From Promethearchaeota archaeon (lineage in GTDB: Archaea > Asgardarchaeota > Lokiarchaeia > Sigyniarchaeales > SOKP01): a DNA stretch of 10,006 bases. The notes under the pieces were generated by a model that worked only from the letters and a program-made list of their open reading frames with translations, was not told the DNA's origin and searched no databases. How positions within the stretch are numbered: position 1 is the first letter of the stretch; the number at the start of each line of letters is the position of its first letter. The translations under genes were made by a program, and so were the position numbers. This document shows positions 844 to 7,975 of this stretch, piece by piece. Location of the stretch: assembly GCA_048938445.1 (NCBI GenBank), contig JBHLME010000146.1, positions 1-10,006 on the forward strand, written 5' to 3'.

Positions 844-1308
844 GTGTTAAAAATAAGTATTGACACTAAAAGTTTCGACAATATACTTTCTAAGATAATT
901 AAGAGCGAAAGCGGAATTAAAAAGGTTATTTTAGTTGATAGAACAGGATTAACTATCGCAAGTGTATCTAAATTCTCTTATTTCCCAGCAGATGTTGATG
1001 GGATTGGTGCAATAGCAAGTGCCGTTTTTTGTGCTAGTGAAGAGCAAGGTAAAAATCTTGAGCTTGGAGATTTAGATATTGTAACGAGCGAGTTTTCTGG
1101 AGGAAAGATATTTGCGGCATCATGTGGGCCAAAAGGTGTTCTTTGTTTGATTTCCGATCCGGACATCAATATTGGTTTAATTAGACTGATTCTTAAACGC
1201 TCTGGAGATGAACTTCGTGAGATTTTAGATGAATTCCTAAGTGAGGTCCCAGAAGCATTGGATAGTGGTTTAGATCTATCCGATTTAGATGAATTAACGC
1301 CAGATTAA
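844..1308 (+). CDS. Roadblock/LC7 (MglB/LAMTOR2-like) domain protein with acidic C-terminal tail; real start may be ATA at 853
   Basis: Roadblock pattern: helix, GIKKVILVDRTGLTIAS beta-hairpin, helix DGIGAIASAVFCASEEQGKNLELG, three strands (LDIVTSEFSGGKIFAASCGPKGVLCLIS), final helix NIGLIRLILKRSGDELREIL. Confidence 0.93.
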   Translation: MLKISIDTKSFDNILSKIIKSESGIKKVILVDRTGLTIASVSKFSYFPADVDGIGAIASAVFCASEEQGKNLELGDLDIVTSEFSGGKIFAASCGPKGVLCLISDPDINIGLIRLILKRSGDELREILDEFLSEVPEALDSGLDLSDLDELTPD

Positions 1309-2631: not shown

Positions 2632-5013
2632 TTATGGGGATAATTGAGCATCACTCGCGTGATATTCTCCTGAACCACTGATTTCATATTTAATTTCCAG
2701 AACCTCCTCCTTTTCTAAGGATTTAATTATCCATTTTAGAGTATCAGTTCCAACCTCATCAGTAATCTCAGTTGGTTCCATTGAAAAGTTTTTATACTTA
2801 AAATTATCAGGAACCTTGTCCAATAAGATAAAATTTCTCAAGGGTATTTCACCAACATTTTGATAAGATAATATGATTTGATAATTACCTTCATTTCCAA
2901 TTGGAATTATTTCTTTTCCTACACGATATTTTCTTCTGATATGAACAACTTTAATAATTGGAATTTTTTCTGGAATTGGGATGAATTCTAATTCTGGTCC
3001 CTTTGGATAGGTATTTGCTGTGTAAATTGCATTCGTTTCAAATTCAGTATCTTTAGATGGGCTTTCAGCGTATATGGGATAAATCAATTTAATAGTCGAA
3101 TTTGGTTCAAACATTCCTGTTTGACTATCCTTTAAATTATTTAAAGTTACCTTGATTTCCTCATTATTAATAATAACTGATTCAGGATCCAAGTCAATCT
3201 CCTTTCCATCCCATAAAAGTTTTAGTTCTTCAGAATTTGGAGGTTTAAATTCATCAGTAAAGTCTTTTTGCGTGAGAGTGACCTCATTCAATGGAGCAGA
3301 ACCATTATTTTCAACAATTAATTGAGCTTCAATTTCGCTTTCCTTATAAGAAGGGATTATAATCACATTTTCTTCCTCCTCAATTCCAATTGGTAATTCT
3401 TTTGCTTCATAAGAAATCGTTCCAGTAATACTTGCTAGTACTAAATCTATATCATCTATAGCAATGATACCGTTTACGTTAGTTTGAAACGTTGGCATTA
3501 CCCTAAATTCTAACTTCTTTTTAAAGGATGGATAATTTTCACTTTCATATTCCCAATGTTCAGAAAGCCATTGTGCCCCTGCAGGAAGTCTAGGGAATTG
3601 ATCTTCAGGAAATGATATAAGATTTTGATCTGGATTAGTAGGATCATTAACATTAACATTAAAGAGTTCTATCATAAACTCAGATAGATTTTGAAATACT
3701 AAATTACAATCCCAGACTCCAGGTTCTTCATCCTTTTCAACCATATCTATGAAATATTTATTATGTGTAAATCCTTCAAATTTCTCAATTGATAATCCCC
3801 CTGAAAAAGAAGAACTCGCTTTATATGTGATATCAATCATTCCGGTTTTTACAGGATCTAAAGACTCAACAAATATATCACACGTGAATTTTAAAATCTG
3901 AGTGGTTTCAGGTTCCAATTCTTCTATTGACCAAATTATTTGATTATTATCAATCTCTGCAGAACCAATTGAACTCGATCTGATATTAACATTATTGAAT
4001 TCAGGTGGAATATTTTTTACCACTTTAACATTAGTTATTGTTTTTTCATATAAACTATGCAAAGCTACTGCAAATGTAATCTCATTTGTTTTTTTAATTG
4101 ATATACCATATGATTCCAAACTAAATTCATCAATATCCATCCCACCTTCTAGCATTTCTTCCTCTGCTTCTCTAATTTTTTCAATAATTTCATCTTTAGT
4201 AGCTTCATCGGGGATATCAATGAGATTATCTTCACAATATTCTTGCAGCTCTTCTAGAGACCATTGTTCGAACTCTTGCTTTTCTTCATCTTCTTCTTGG
4301 AATTCCACATCTTTATCTAAATCTATTAATTCTTCACTTGATTTCTCCTTCTCTTCTCCACTAGTATCATCAAAATCATCTAACTCTTCATCTATTTCTT
4401 CAAGAATTTCTTCTCCAACTTCCTCAATCTCTTCTACTGTTTCTTCAAAAATTTCTTCTTCAACTTCCGCCTTGTCTTCTACCAGCTCTTTAATTTCTTC
4501 CTCTTTAACTCCAATAGTCTCTACTTCCACATCACTAACTTTTTCTTTTAATTTAAATAAATCATTTTTAATGTCAGTAGGATTTAATATCTCATCTGCA
4601 TTGGGATTAGTATTCACGTATTCTTTTATTAAAACAAGATTTTTTATATCACCTGTTAATTGAAATTCTTGAGTATTGCTTTTCTCATCTTCATTAATTC
4701 CTAATTCTCGTATTTTTATTTCATTAGATTTAAGATTAGTACTTTCAATATTTTTAAAAACAATATCAATATCCCATAATCGATCAACTTGACTTGGATT
4801 TTCTATTGAAAGTTTACCATTAAAACCTATGGAATTGATATTACTATAATGATCTTGTTTTACATCAACTTCCTCGATAAGTTCTACTAACACTGATAAT
4901 CCTTCTTTATTACCATCTTTTAATATTACCCCTTGAGGTTGCTTTACTTGAATAGATTCAGCATATTTAGGTTCAAGGTCTATCTGCTTTTCTTCCTTTT
5001 TTTTTCGAGCCAT
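2632..5013 (-). CDS. Large acidic multi-beta-sandwich protein: putative adaptin mu-homology-like N-terminal half, Glu/Asp-rich insert with HeH/SAP-like motif, C-terminal DUF11/TRAP-beta-like Ig domains
   Basis: 793-aa ORF with SD-like TAGGT ending 7 nt before ATG. No signal peptide or TM helix. Repeated Ig-type motifs ([36 protein letters not shown]...[20 protein letters not shown]). The CDS call is secure; the fold calls are by eye. Confidence 0.85.
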   Translation of the reverse strand: [793 protein letters not shown]

Positions 5014-5138: not shown

Positions 5139-5980
5139 TTAATGGTCCTCAACGTATATTTTTTTCATCAAATTATTTATAGTGGCATATCTTTACGCAC
5201 CAAGAAATAGTATATTGGTATTAAAAATATAATTAGTCCAATAATCATTCCAATAATCGCATTAGTTGTTAAAGCTAAAAATCCCCAACAAATAAATGAA
5301 GCTATAATCGCTCCACCTAAACCAATTCCAAATATTCCAAATAGTACTAAACCAAGAACTTTTATTTTGCTTTTAGGAGCTATATCTTTAATTAAATCAT
5401 TCTCTTTGTATCCTTTAAATAGCTAATTCAAAGGAAACCAAATCATTGGAGGTAATATAATTATAACCATTACATATAGAGTAATTGCAACGCTACTATA
5501 AGTAAAAGTGATAATATCTACGAATAATCCTGTTTGAAATAGAGCACCAATTTTTTGTGAAGGATCCTAAAAAAATCTTTGAGCGCCAGTTCCATCACAT
5601 CCATAAGCTAAGATGAAAAACATAATGAAATATCCGATGATTGTTTGAAGAAGAGCGAAGTTTAATTTGCCTTTTTTAATTAAATAATAGGTAATATTAT
5701 ATCCTACTATACCCATTAAGATATTTGTAGCTGCCGCAAAGACCGTAACCCACGTTGGTACATCAATACGAGAGGAGAAGATATGCATACTCTCCCGGTG
5801 AGGAAATTCTCAAAGTAAATAGGTTGCTGTTGGAACAAAGAAAATTGCAAAATAAAACACTGTAAATAAGAAATATTTTGATTCATACCATTTTCTCTCA
5901 CCATTTTTAATCTGATTATATGCAGAAAATCCAAACATTGCGCCTATCGCATAAACCCAAAATACATCGACTTGTATCAT
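5139..5980 (-). pseudogene. Multi-pass membrane protein gene (MIQVDVFW... uncharacterised family) interrupted by three in-frame stops and a probable terminal 1-nt deletion
   Basis: Manual translation from ATG5980 stays in one frame for 267 codons: MIQVDVFWVYAIGAMFG...PTATYLL*(TGA 5810-5812)EFPHRESMHIF...YFIMFFILAYGCDGTGAQRFF*(TAG 5567-5569)DPSQKIG...SSVAITLYVMVIIILPPMIWFPLN*(TAG 5423-5425)LFKGYKE...LVLFGIFGIGLGGAIIASFICWG...IPIYYFLVRKDMPL*(TAA 5177-5179). A shifted frame continues NNLMKKIYVEDH* to 5139. ORF-track entries 5810..5992 and 5567..5788 are pieces of this gene. Confidence 0.85.
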
Positions 5981-6022
5981 TTCATAAATCACATTTTATT
6001 AATTTATTACGTTTAAAAATTT

Positions 6023-6072
6023 TCAACGTTTGACAATATTTAAAGGTTAATAGTAATTTACAACTGTAATTT
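6023..6072. promoter_or_regulatory. Divergent promoter region with TATA-like TTTAAA (6039-6044) and operator-like repeats
   Basis: TCAA-cgt-TTGA (6023-6033), TTACA-ac-TGTAA (6058-6069) and direct repeat GTAATTT (6053-6059, 6066-6072) lie in the 135-nt gap between ATG5980(-) and ATG6116(+). Confidence 0.4.
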
Positions 6073-6115
6073 CCATTTTAATATTTAATAGAACTATAAG
6101 GGAGTAGAAATAAAC

Positions 6116-7975
6116 ATGCCAAATGTTAAAGGAGATGGTAAAATCGTAAAAAAAAGATCAGGTTATGGTAAAAATGGACGTGGAGGATATGAGTATGTTC
6201 AAATTTACGTTCCAAGCAAGATCTCTAAAGATTCTTCATTTCCATTTATAGATAAGGAAGAAGTTTCAATAGAGATTCAAAATAATAAATTAATTATAAG
6301 TAAAAAAGACAGATTAATCGATTTAATTAAACAATACAAATTGGATAAGAATTTTTATACTACTCTCCCGAAATTAATTGAAGCAAAAGCAATAGAAAAT
6401 CAAAAAAGGCCTTTTCTAATATTTAAAGACAATATTTATTCATATAAAGAAACAAATGAGAAAGTAAATTCCATTGCTCACGGGATTTTAAAGTTAATTA
6501 AACAAATAAATGTAAAAAAAAATACCCATATTGCTATTATGTTGCCAAATTGCCCTGAATTTATTTTCTGTTGGTTTGCAATCGTGAAAGCAAAATGTAT
6601 ATTCATTCCAGTAAATCGTTTTTTAGAAGGTGACTCCTTAGAATATATCCTGAACCACAGCGATAGTGAAATTTTAATTGTAGACTTCCAATTTCTAAAA
6701 ACATTTAAAATGATAGAAAAAAAATTAATAAAATTGAAAAAAATTGTTGTTTTTAATGCTCCAGATACCTATCGCTTTAATAATAATAAATATATGAATT
6801 TTAGCGAAATAAATACTAATAACATTAAGAATCCCGATCTAAATATCAGAAGTACTAATATAATGGGGATTATTTACACTGAGGGTACGACCGGTCCTCC
6901 TAAGGGGGTTGTATACAAACATCTTCTTGTATTATCGGGACAAATCTTTGGAAAACTACTAAAGCAAGGAATATTTAGAAAAGATGATGATCGAGTTGTA
7001 TATTGTCCAACTCCACTTTTTCAGGCATTTTCTCAAATAGTTATTGTTATTTCATCCATCTTTTTAAATGCAACGATTGTGCTTGCAGAGAGATTTGATG
7101 CAGCTATATTTTGGGATGATGTAAGAAGATATAATGCAGAATTAATCTATTATTATGGTGGAATTATACAAAGTTTAATGGATGAACCCCCAAAGGATAT
7201 TGATAGGTATCATAAAGCCAGATTTGCTTTAGGGGGTCAAGCTCCTAAAGAAATATGGAATTCATTCGAAAATAGATTTAATCTTACTATATTTGAAGGT
7301 TGGGCTGCTACTGAAGCAATTGGTTTTACATGTAATTTTCTAGGTTCAAAGGGAGGAAAAATAGGGTCAATAGGTAAACCTTACTATGCTTGGAAATTAA
7401 AAATAGTAAATAATGAAGGAAAAGAACTGCCACCAGGAGCTAATAATATCGGCGAAATTGTAGCGAAAAAGTCATTTCCTTTAACTTTAGAATATTATAA
7501 AACGCCAGAAAGTACTCCAATGATATTTAAAAAGGATGGCTATATCAGTACAGGAGATCTTGGATATAAAGATAATGATGGTTTCATATATTTTGTAGGT
7601 CGTAAAAATGAAATTATAAAAAAAGCAGGTAAAGAAATATTACCTTTTTTTATTGAAAGTATTGCTAATGCCCATCCAAGTATTTTAGAAAGTGCTGCTT
7701 TTGGAGTACCTTCTGAAAATTATCAAGAAGAGGATATAAAAATTTGTATAGTCTTGAAAAGACAAAAACAATTAAGCTATGAAGAAATTTACGATTACTT
7801 GAATGAACATTTAGCTTATTATATGGTTCCTCGTTATATTGAAATAAAAAAAAGATTACGGAGTTCATCCGAACGAATTAAGAAATATCTTCTGAGAAAT
7901 GAATGGAATAAGGATGAAATAAAGAAAAATACATGGGATTCTAAAATTTCAAATTTGTTAATTTTATCGGTCTGA
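6116..7975 (+). CDS. AbrB/SpoVT-like N-terminal domain fused to a CaiC-like (crotonobetaine/carnitine-CoA ligase-type) AMP-binding enzyme domain
   Basis: ANL-superfamily motifs: IAIMLPNCPEF, IIYTEGTTGPPKGV, PLFQ, ERFDAAIFWDDVRRY, WNSFENRFNL, EGWAATE, GSIGKP, STGDLG, YFVGRK, LAYYMVPRYIE. aa 1-65 carry QIYVPSKISKDSSFPFIDKEEVSIEIQNNKLIISK. SD-like GGGAGT upstream. Confidence 0.9.
   Translation: MPNVKGDGKIVKKRSGYGKNGRGGYEYVQIYVPSKISKDSSFPFIDKEEVSIEIQNNKLIISKKDRLIDLIKQYKLDKNFYTTLPKLIEAKAIENQKRPFLIFKDNIYSYKETNEKVNSIAHGILKLIKQINVKKNTHIAIMLPNCPEFIFCWFAIVKAKCIFIPVNRFLEGDSLEYILNHSDSEILIVDFQFLKTFKMIEKKLIKLKKIVVFNAPDTYRFNNNKYMNFSEINTNNIKNPDLNIRSTNIMGIIYTEGTTGPPKGVVYKHLLVLSGQIFGKLLKQGIFRKDDDRVVYCPTPLFQAFSQIVIVISSIFLNATIVLAERFDAAIFWDDVRRYNAELIYYYGGIIQSLMDEPPKDIDRYHKARFALGGQAPKEIWNSFENRFNLTIFEGWAATEAIGFTCNFLGSKGGKIGSIGKPYYAWKLKIVNNEGKELPPGANNIGEIVAKKSFPLTLEYYKTPESTPMIFKKDGYISTGDLGYKDNDGFIYFVGRKNEIIKKAGKEILPFFIESIANAHPSILESAAFGVPSENYQEEDIKICIVLKRQKQLSYEEIYDYLNEHLAYYMVPRYIEIKKRLRSSSERIKKYLLRNEWNKDEIKKNTWDSKISNLLILSV

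What the first reader, a model, noticed from the sequence alone, without database searches (positions are those of the whole stretch)
6116..7975. AbrB-like DNA-binding domain fused to an acyl-CoA ligase fold: candidate one-component acyl/CoA-sensing regulator
Seen: about 80 extra N-terminal residues precede the normal ligase start (TLPKLIEAKA...). They contain a basic Gly-rich loop (GKIVKKRSGYGKNGRGGYEY) followed by IYVPSKISKDSSFPFIDKEEVSIEIQNNKLIISK. Established: 'i.iP..i......f..ge.v.i......l.i.k' is the AbrB/SpoVT/MazE swapped-hairpin signature, and AbrB domains dimerise to bind DNA; ANL ligases do not normally carry one. Inference: a transcription factor that uses an adenylate-forming domain as ligand sensor, or a trigger enzyme, regulating fatty-acid or CoA metabolism. 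I know of no characterised example.
Basis: partly seen in the sequence, partly recalled or inferred. Interest (0 to 1): 0.85.

Follow-up and report, generated by a model that had tools for sequence, protein, structure and literature searches.

The report
AbrB-like domain fused to acyl-CoA ligase
An Asgard-archaeal acyl-CoA-ligase-type protein carries a conserved N-terminal DNA-binding-type (AbrB-like) dimer domain, and a matching palindrome sits in front of nearly every such gene, so it is probably an enzyme-derived regulator that controls its own gene.

Summary
ORF 6116-7975 (+) encodes 619 aa: about 65 extra N-terminal residues, a linker, then an ANL (AMP-binding) ligase.

The fusion is conserved. 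The domain was found in 52 of 135 genomes of the window's family, and 58 of 68 matches lie in frames of 537 aa or more.

The N-domain misses every curated threshold. Four other lines point to the AbrB/SpoVT/MazE swapped-hairpin fold:
- The strand order is β-β-α-β-β.
- hhalign against true PF04014 domains gives 88.5%, score 32.8; the best of 100 column shuffles scored 14.8.
- 10 of the only 11 PDB chains with Z≥2 have this fold.
- The homodimer model scores 0.54 against a best control of 0.00, with barrel-closing contacts.

New here is a palindrome, TTAC-N4-GTAA, 24-58 bp upstream of the start codon. It occurs in 24 of 30 non-redundant upstream regions, against 31 of 3750 genes genome-wide. It is absent upstream of 7 unfused ligase paralogues in the same loci.

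Best reading: an autoregulating enzyme/sensor-repressor. DNA binding and ligand control are inferred, not shown. The canonical A10 catalytic lysine is missing.

The parts
6116..7975 (+). Whole ORF, 619 aa: AbrB-like domain, linker, then ANL ligase
   Evidence: AF2 full-length model: mean pLDDT 87.5, pTM 0.84.
6116..6310 (+). Residues 1-65: AbrB/SpoVT-like swapped-hairpin domain (β1 9-14, basic Gly-rich loop 15-25, β2 26-31, α 34-37, FPF motif 42-44, β3 50-55, β4 58-63)
   Evidence: Secondary structure. hhalign 88.5% against PF04014 domains. VIA-align, 10 of 11 hits with the AbrB fold. Dimer model 0.54 against a best control of 0.00. Segment 1-24 net charge +6 (family mean +5.2).
6311..6361 (+). 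Residues 66-82: linker with helix 66-73, lower confidence
   Evidence: pLDDT block 71-80 = 63.
6383..7474 (+). AMP-binding domain (PF00501), residues 90-453; A3 motif YTEGTTGPPKG at 254-264
7652..7858 (+). AMP-binding_C (PF13193), residues 513-581
7874..7876 (+). Codon of R587, the column of the canonical A10 catalytic lysine (Lys in 1 of 50 fused relatives)
6057..7000 (.). NOTE: only 6057-6070 is meant. Candidate operator TTTACAACTGTAAT; palindromic core TTAC-N4-GTAA at 6058-6069, 58 bp upstream of the ATG
   Evidence: Unchanged in a contig of run X5 covering 6025-6175.
6100..6104 (+). GGGAG, Shine-Dalgarno-like, 11 nt before the ATG at 6116; supports this start
   Evidence: read; not tested.
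5180..5992 (-). Divergently oriented pseudogene of a roughly 283-aa membrane-type protein with no Pfam family; intact in relatives

Best explanation
The gene encodes a two-part protein found in Asgard archaea of the window's family. Residues 1-65 form a divergent AbrB/SpoVT/MazE-type swapped-hairpin domain. Two copies interleave into an eight-stranded barrel, which makes the protein a dimer and presents a lysine/arginine- and glycine-rich β1-β2 loop. The remainder is an ANL-type acyl-adenylate/CoA-ligase fold. Most likely the dimeric N-domain binds the palindrome TTAC-N4-GTAA, which lies next to or over the promoter of its own gene (here at 6058-6069). In the paralogue's locus, two such sites lie in front of the DUF2284 / corrinoid-protein / RACo / ligase operon. 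Binding would repress transcription, and the ligand state of the ligase domain (acid, ATP, acyl-AMP or CoA) would set the affinity. This is the logic of BirA or PutA. Shown here: the fusion, its conservation, the fold assignment at the level of prediction, and the gene-specific conserved palindrome. Inferred: that this protein rather than another factor binds the palindrome, that it represses, and that a ligand controls it.
For: Fusion and conservation:
- About 85 of the 90 best hits are about 600 aa and carry the same N-terminus.
- 52 of 135 family genomes have a match, and 58 of 68 matches lie in frames of 537 aa or more.

Fold:
- The order is β-β-α-β-β, with a domain-model pLDDT of 86.4.
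- 34 of 102 relatives give sub-threshold PF04014 hits and 7 of 102 give SymE hits; no other DNA-binding family recurs.
- TIGR01439 (AbrB family) hits 3 of 9 stand-alone relatives below threshold.
- hhalign of A3 against 24 true PF04014 domains gives probability 88.5% and score 32.8. The 100 column shuffles had mean 9.2 and maximum 14.8.
- VIA-align over 48,161 chains found 11 with Z>=2. Ten are AbrB, SpoVT, MazE, VapB, C56 or 5itj; the best is 5itj_A, Z 4.1, rmsd 2.0 over 46 residues.
- The ESM Atlas structural neighbours include SpoVT-AbrB and SymE clusters.

Dimer:
- ipSAE is 0.54 against a best control of 0.00. The runs agree in at least 92% of contacts, and the partner's pLDDT is at least 69. 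That mark was reached by 20 of 30 proteins solved as pairs of one chain and by 1 of 23 solved as single chains.
- The contacts are β4:β4' (60:60), β2:β2' (30:30) and β3:β1' (50:8), which close a swapped-hairpin barrel.
- Solved AbrB-type dimers exist, so this pass may reflect likeness to them.

Basic face:
- Segment 1-24 has a mean net charge of +5.2 (range +2 to +8) in 36 fused domains.

Operator:
- The exact TTAC-N4-GTAA lies within 150 bp upstream in 24 of 30 non-redundant rows, and with at most one mismatch in 28. One of the 30 rows is a false positive of my regex. One row (L104) gains an exact site once its start is corrected.
- The background in the window's genome is 31 of 3750 genes (0.83%), Fisher p 2.6e-42. 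Kinship inflates this figure.
- There are 21 distinct site sequences, at -24 to -58.
- In 216,761 bp around the ligases, 28 core sites were found. 25 were called intergenic, and one more (L134 4594) becomes upstream of the ligase after its start is corrected.
- These sites sit almost only before fused ligases and before the DUF2284 operon.
- None lies within 200 bp upstream of the 7 unfused ANL paralogues in those loci.
- Two DUF2284/B12 pairs that are not linked to a fused ligase (L141, L142) have no site upstream.
Against: - No curated model recognises the domain: Pfam gives nothing at E<=1 for the window's own sequence, and phmmer and hmmsearch against PDB give nothing significant.
- Foldseek against PDB gives 0 hits at E<=0.001, and all VIA Z-scores are 4.1 or lower.
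- DNA binding is not measured, and another transcription factor could own the palindrome.
- The palindrome is not over-represented genome-wide. There are 22 TTTAC-N4-GTAAA sites, against 5-33 for control palindromes.
- A wider regulon was not confirmed. The site before the 3-hydroxyacyl-CoA dehydrogenase gene is kept in only 2 of 30 orthologue loci.
- Stand-alone relatives of the domain do not carry this palindrome upstream: 0 of 7.
- The genes sit in ordinary metabolic clusters, which fits a plain enzyme.
- The loci are related to one another, so the counts are not independent.
Confidence: 0.55

Rival explanations
1. A plain metabolic acyl-CoA ligase in which the AbrB-like domain serves only as a dimerisation or partner-docking module. 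The upstream palindrome would be the site of a separate, unlinked transcription factor that regulates these ligase genes.
For: The genes lie in acyl-CoA and corrinoid metabolic clusters. Catalytic motifs A3, A5, A7 and A8 are conserved. The strongest direct prediction is dimerisation, not DNA binding. No curated DNA-binding model scores above threshold.
Against: The only gene common to all palindrome-bearing loci is the fused ligase. The site is absent before 7 unfused ANL paralogues in the same clusters and before 2 DUF2284/B12 pairs that lack the ligase. The β1-loop region keeps a positive charge in all 36 domains, which dimerisation alone does not require. No DNA-binding gene recurs among the conserved neighbours. 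The recurring families are DUF2284, B12-binding and RACo, and thiolase, oxidoreductases, an FAD-binding protein, a nitroreductase and an SDR.
Confidence: 0.27
2. A pseudo-enzyme one-component regulator. The ligase fold no longer catalyses and acts purely as a ligand-binding sensor for the AbrB-like DNA-binding domain.
For: The canonical A10 catalytic-lysine column holds Lys in 1 of 50 fused proteins (R 16, F 10, E 9, L 8). It is less conserved than in unfused relatives, which keep 'TER'. SpoVT (AbrB domain plus GAF sensor) is a recalled precedent for an AbrB domain paired with a sensor.
Against: A3 (G257 49/50, P262 49/50, K263 48/50), A5 (E400 50/50), A7 (D481 49/50, D486 50/50) and A8 (G495 50/50) are kept. 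The nearby K590 is Lys in 44 of 50 and could substitute. The wider unfused subfamily also lacks the lysine, so the loss predates the fusion.
Confidence: 0.13
3. The N-terminal extension is a mis-called start or an assembly chimera, or is a nucleic-acid-independent antitoxin-like remnant.
For: A few database relatives start after the domain (P0052, P0071, P0073). The AbrB fold is common in antitoxins; the structural hits include VapB and MazE.
Against: The frame is continuous and conserved in 58 of 68 matches. The invariant residues lie inside the extension. GGGAG precedes the ATG. No toxin-type gene was seen next to the fused genes or next to the 7 stand-alone genes inspected.
Confidence: 0.03

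Closest known systems
AbrB / SpoVT / MazE / VapB swapped-hairpin DNA-binding domains (Pfam PF04014, TIGR01439)
   Same: The β-β-α-β-β order, the invariant Pro after β2 (IYIPS aligned to ItIPK), the predicted interleaved homodimer barrel and the basic β1-β2 loop.
   Different: It scores below every curated cut-off. It has a longer Gly-rich β1-β2 loop and its own invariant Y..P..FPF signature. It is fused to an ANL ligase rather than to a GAF, PhoU-type or antitoxin tail.
SpoVT (AbrB domain plus GAF sensor domain), recalled; PDB 2w1t appears
   Same: An AbrB-type N-terminal dimer domain joined to a C-terminal ligand-binding domain in one chain.
   Different: The sensor here is an adenylate-forming enzyme fold. 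The host is archaeal. A defined 12-bp palindrome lies upstream of its own gene.
BirA (biotin protein ligase and repressor), PutA and NadR: bifunctional 'trigger enzymes' (recalled, no call)
   Same: An enzyme that makes or binds an adenylate or substrate carries an N-terminal DNA-binding domain, with an operator in front of the genes it serves.
   Different: The DNA-binding fold differs (AbrB-like rather than winged HTH or ribbon-helix-helix), and so does the enzyme superfamily (ANL). Nothing here is experimentally shown.
CaiC-type and PRK06155-type ATP-dependent acyl-CoA ligases
   Same: The best NCBIfam hits are PRK06187, PRK06155 and PRK08008 (CaiC), at E 1e-85 to 1e-92. Identity to enterobacterial CaiC is about 30%. 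The 'ER' in place of 'GK' in A10 and the C-terminal TWD tail are shared with unfused relatives.
   Different: All scores fall far below the curated cut-offs (309.7 against 476; 287.5 against 651), so the substrate is unknown. There is also the extra N-domain.
Unannotated archaeal small proteins of 55-100 aa (Bathyarchaeota, Methanobacteriota, other Asgard lineages)
   Same: They are true sequence relatives of the N-domain. 556 proteins score E<=1e-3, and most of the listed 150 are stand-alone.
   Different: They are stand-alone, tandemly duplicated or fused to a Zn-ribbon. The TTAC-N4-GTAA palindrome lies upstream of none of the 7 inspected.

Membership tests
AbrB/SpoVT/MazE swapped-hairpin superfamily (PF04014) | About 50-residue unit with the order β1-β2-α-β3-β4 | tested here: met
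   AF2 models give E9-14, E26-31, H34-37, E50-55, E58-63.
AbrB/SpoVT/MazE swapped-hairpin superfamily (PF04014) | Score above the curated cut-off of PF04014 or TIGR01439 | tested here: not met
   The window's domain gives no hit at E<=1. Sub-threshold hits occur in 2 of 36 fused domains and 34 of 102 relatives, best E 1.3e-4. TIGR01439 reaches 14.7-18.4 bits against a cut-off of 28.3.
AbrB/SpoVT/MazE swapped-hairpin superfamily (PF04014) | Profile-profile similarity to true family members | tested here: met
   hhalign gives 88.5% and E 2.7e-6 over 39 columns, and 64.8% with the fused domains alone. 0 of 100 column shuffles reached the score; their maximum was 14.8 against 32.8.
AbrB/SpoVT/MazE swapped-hairpin superfamily (PF04014) | Structural match to solved members | tested here: inconclusive
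   Foldseek gives 0 hits at E<=0.001. VIA-align gives Z of 4.1 or lower, but 10 of the only 11 chains with Z>=2 have this fold.
AbrB/SpoVT/MazE swapped-hairpin superfamily (PF04014) | Homodimer with interleaved hairpins forming one barrel | tested here: met
   This is a prediction only: ipSAE 0.54 against a best control of 0.00, with contacts β4:β4', β2:β2' and β3:β1'. It may reflect likeness to solved dimers.
AbrB/SpoVT/MazE swapped-hairpin superfamily (PF04014) | Binds DNA | not testable with these tools
   Indirect only: the basic loop and the gene-specific conserved palindrome.
ANL adenylate-forming superfamily | AMP-binding and AMP-binding_C domains above the Pfam cut-offs | tested here: met
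   199.5 bits against 29.9, and 34.5 bits against 24.5.
ANL adenylate-forming superfamily | Core motifs A3 (P-loop), A5 Glu, A7 Asp and A8 Gly/Arg | tested here: met
   Conserved in 45-50 of 50 fused proteins. The motif names are recalled.
ANL adenylate-forming superfamily | A10 catalytic lysine (the 'GK' of PKTxSGK) | tested here: not met
   The window has R587. The column holds K 1, R 16, F 10, E 9 and L 8 of 50. The role of this lysine is recalled.
CaiC crotonobetaine/carnitine-CoA ligase (NF005947) | Score above the equivalog cut-off | tested here: not met
   287.5 bits against a cut-off of 651. Identity to enterobacterial CaiC is about 30%.
Bifunctional enzyme-repressors ('trigger enzymes', BirA-like) | DNA-binding domain and enzyme fold in one chain, with an operator at its own gene or operon | tested here: met
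   Architecture. The operator is supported in silico only.
Bifunctional enzyme-repressors ('trigger enzymes', BirA-like) | Ligand- or intermediate-dependent DNA binding | not testable with these tools

The most novel reading that the evidence does not exclude
A family-specific Asgard 'adenylate-gated' repressor. The AbrB-like dimer domain holds the protein on TTAC-N4-GTAA operators. The ligase fold has lost the canonical A10 lysine and so dwells in an acyl-AMP- or substrate-bound state that acts as co-repressor or inducer. This would couple the availability of an organic acid directly to transcription of its own gene and of a corrinoid-protein / RACo operon. It would be the first ANL-superfamily transcription factor and the first enzyme-fused AbrB regulator in archaea.
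Probability: 0.2. Interest if true: 0.85.

Novelty: new variant of a known kind. Interest (0 to 1): 0.7.

Why it matters
Enzyme-transcription-factor fusions such as BirA, PutA and NadR are textbook cases of metabolism talking directly to gene expression. I know of none that uses an ANL adenylate-forming fold or an AbrB-type domain. Four full-text searches found no description of this fusion.

The case comes with a ready experiment. There is a defined roughly 70-residue domain, a defined 12-14-bp palindrome, and natural controls in the unfused paralogues that lack the site.

It also defines an unannotated archaeal family of small AbrB-like proteins: 556 cluster representatives at E<=1e-3. Transcriptional regulation in Asgard archaea is almost unexplored experimentally.

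Tried and rejected
- **Sequence searches of the N-domain.** Pfam, NCBIfam and PDB searches of the domain alone gave nothing above threshold. Weak local matches to HSP20, uL24 and Peptidase_A4 cover only the β3-β4 hairpin, and I treated them as chance.
- **Foldseek against PDB.** No hit at E<=0.001.
- **The search for related loci in genome contigs.** It returned only enterobacterial CaiC-type genes at about 30% identity and no Asgard orthologues. I used it only for the CaiC comparison.
- **Regulon extension.** Of 3,773 genes scanned in the window's genome, 17 have an exact core within 100 bp upstream. That rate matches control palindromes. The 17 include a 3-hydroxyacyl-CoA dehydrogenase, an SCP2 protein and two α/β-hydrolases. 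The dehydrogenase site is kept in only 2 of 30 orthologue loci, so I claim no wider regulon.
- **Stand-alone relatives.** None of the 7 upstream regions carries TTAC..GTAA, and no toxin-like neighbour was seen.
- **TGA or TAG recoding as an explanation for the broken neighbour gene.** Rejected. The three in-frame stops are TGA, TAG and TAG, each opposite a Trp, and there is no genome-wide read-through signal.
- **Expression.** No RNA holder was listed. The laid contigs confirm only the DNA.
- **Literature.** I saw search listings, and one passage of PMC6393860, which mentions AbrB only as an antitoxin label. Supplements were not consulted because they are closed.
- **Recalled, not from any call.** These are the roles of BirA, PutA, NadR, SpoVT and BzdR; the AbrB DNA-contact arginines; the swapped-hairpin barrel description; and the identity of 5itj as Sso7c4. 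I assumed, without checking, that 7xi6 C56 is AbrB-like.
Full report
**What is there**

The window is AT-rich DNA from an Asgard archaeon. Relatives are named Promethearchaeota or Lokiarchaeota by their sources. The window also holds a Roadblock/LC7 gene.

ORF 6116-7975 (+) encodes 619 aa. Pfam finds AMP-binding at 90-453 and AMP-binding_C at 513-581. It finds nothing on residues 1-85 at E<=1. All PDB and NCBIfam ligase matches begin at residue 62 or later.

**The fusion is conserved**

- A search of 5.8 billion proteins returned 321 hits. About 85 of the top 90 are about 600 aa and share the motif GKGKI..KKSG..GY.S.WIYIPSKI.KDS.FPF.DKEEV.IE...g.L.I.K. Lower hits of about 535 aa lack it.
- In 50 aligned fused proteins, Y25, P33, F42 and F44 are invariant. 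The N-domain is therefore as constrained as the catalytic core.
- In whole genomes, 52 of 135 genomes of the window's family have the domain, and 58 of 68 matches lie in frames of 537 aa or more. Several of the rest are cut by contig ends.
- In an even sample of the phylum, 14 of 201 genomes match. Fused forms occur only in the window's own family. Three other families hold small stand-alone forms.
- The window's genome has two fused paralogues and no stand-alone copy at E<=1.

**Fold of the N-domain**

No curated model reaches threshold. Several independent lines nevertheless converge on the AbrB/SpoVT/MazE swapped hairpin.

1. AF2 gives β9-14, β26-31, α34-37, β50-55, β58-63. pLDDT is 86.4 for the domain alone and 87.5 for the full length.
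2. A profile search of 1.84 billion cluster representatives found 556 relatives at E<=1e-3. Most are 55-100-aa stand-alone proteins; some are tandem duplicates or Zn-ribbon fusions. Of 102 such sequences, 34 give sub-threshold PF04014 hits and 7 give SymE hits.
3. hhalign of this family against 24 true PF04014 domains from related genomes gives 88.5%, E 2.7e-6 and score 32.8. The alignment pairs IYIPS with ItIPK. The 100 column-shuffled controls reached at most 14.8.
4. VIA-align against 48,161 chains found only 11 with Z>=2, and 10 of them have this fold. The Z values are low, at most 4.1. Foldseek's non-significant top list is likewise rich in VapB, MazE and AbrB. The ESM Atlas lists SpoVT-AbrB and SymE clusters among the structural neighbours.
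5. Two copies of residues 1-76 are predicted to bind. The score is 0.54 against a best control of 0.00. The runs agree in at least 92% of contacts, and the partner's pLDDT is at least 69. That mark was reached by 20 of 30 solved homo-pairs and by 1 of 23 single chains. The contacts are β4:β4', β2:β2' and β3:β1', which close an eight-stranded barrel. Solved AbrB dimers exist, so this pass shows likeness rather than proof.

I put the fold assignment at about 0.85-0.9.

**A conserved palindrome: the new evidence**

While reading upstream regions I found TTAC-N4-GTAA, often as T-TTAC-N4-GTAA-A, in front of nearly every fused ligase gene.

- In the window it is TTTACAACTGTAAT at 6057-6070, 58 bp before the ATG.
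- Over 30 non-redundant upstream regions, 24 hold the exact core within 150 bp and 28 hold it with at most one mismatch. One of the 30 rows is a regex false positive, and one gains an exact site once its start is corrected.
- There are 21 distinct site sequences, at -24 to -58. The proteins behind them are only 42-94% identical.
- In the window's own genome the exact core lies in the 150 bp upstream of 31 of 3750 genes (Fisher p 2.6e-42; relatedness inflates this).
- The palindrome is not enriched genome-wide.
- In 216,761 bp of flanking DNA there are 28 core sites. Almost all sit before fused ligases or, in pairs 85-87 bp apart, before the DUF2284 operon that ends in the ligase.
- None lies before the 7 unfused ANL paralogues in the same clusters.
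- Two DUF2284/B12 pairs without a linked fused ligase have no site upstream.

The site therefore tracks the fused gene itself, which is the usual signature of an autoregulated transcription factor. The β1 strand and loop are always positively charged, with a mean of +5.2. Binding itself is not shown, and a separate factor cannot be excluded.

**Context and enzyme side**

Three kinds of neighbourhood occur.

- Type A, 5 loci, including the paralogue on C240 of this genome. The order is DUF2284, a B12-binding protein, RACo, then the ligase, with methylmalonyl-CoA mutase, its B12 subunit and MeaB nearby.
- Type B. Clusters with thiolase, OYE-type reductase, FAD/CCG oxidoreductase, nitroreductase, SDR and other ligases.
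- The window's type. The ligase is divergent from an unannotated membrane-type gene of about 285 aa and convergent with a GT87-like gene.

The ligase part is generic. Its best NCBIfam hits are all far below cut-off, and it is about 30% identical to CaiC. Motifs A3, A5, A7 and A8 are conserved. The canonical A10 lysine column holds Lys in only 1 of 50 fused proteins. The window has Arg there, as unfused relatives do with 'TER'. K590 is Lys in 44 of 50. Whether the protein is an active enzyme or a sensor is open.

**Verdict**

Its fold call is supported, and its 'unique fusion' refutation test fails to refute. The regulatory reading gains real but indirect support from the palindrome.

The closest known logic is BirA, PutA or SpoVT (recalled). 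The architecture (AbrB-like domain plus ANL fold) and its operator are not described in the papers searched. I rate it a new variant of a known kind, interest 0.7, with confidence 0.55 in the autoregulator mechanism.

No RNA data were available.

Noticed in passing
window 5180-5992 (-): The divergent neighbour is a pseudogene. It aligns at 75% identity over 271 aa, in one frame, to the intact 283-aa orthologue of a same-genus genome. It has three in-frame stops (TGA, TAG, TAG), each opposite a Trp, so each is a TGG G>A transition. There are no frameshifts. The first stop is also present in contigs of two runs from another study.
   Followed up: yes
L136 (G004:C37) 3987-4660: In a same-genus genome with the same synteny (DUF11 protein, 283-aa gene, GT87 gene), the fused ligase is only a remnant. 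Residues 1-40 are followed by TAG, and otherwise only residues 436-619 remain. The two relatives have each lost one member of the divergent gene pair.
   Followed up: partly
window 7874-7876 (R587) and alignment A1: The canonical A10 catalytic lysine of ANL enzymes is absent from the whole fused family and from its unfused 'TER...TWDRE' relatives.
   Followed up: partly
L054, L056, L058, L060 upstream of the DUF2284 gene: Two TTACG..CGTAA-type palindromes lie 85-87 bp apart and flank an AT-rich TATA-like stretch in the operon promoter. The fixed spacing suggests looping or a dimer of dimers.
   Followed up: no
P0162, P0189, P0246, P0270; P0194, P0224, P0253; P0128: Stand-alone relatives of the N-domain also occur as tandem duplicates, which would form a barrel within one chain, and fused to Zn-ribbons. 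P0128 joins the domain to a sigma-54-like C-terminus, by my reading of its sequence, and may be a chimera.
   Followed up: no
L042 (G066:C13), L043, L044: Other palindromes lie upstream of stand-alone domain genes: TTGGTATACCAA and TTGGTTATCCAA in L042, and TGGTTTACCA in L043 and L044. These may be operators with a different specificity.
   Followed up: no
G000:C63:9201-10391 and G004:C287: A 3-hydroxyacyl-CoA dehydrogenase gene has TTACTAAAGTAA upstream in both genomes of the window's genus, but not in the other 28 orthologue loci.
   Followed up: yes
window 844-1308, 2632-5013, 3-671: The window also holds a Roadblock/LC7 protein, a 793-aa acidic DUF11-domain protein with SAP- and Ish1-like weak hits, and a long coiled-coil protein. 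These look like typical Asgard 'eukaryote-like' content.
   Followed up: no
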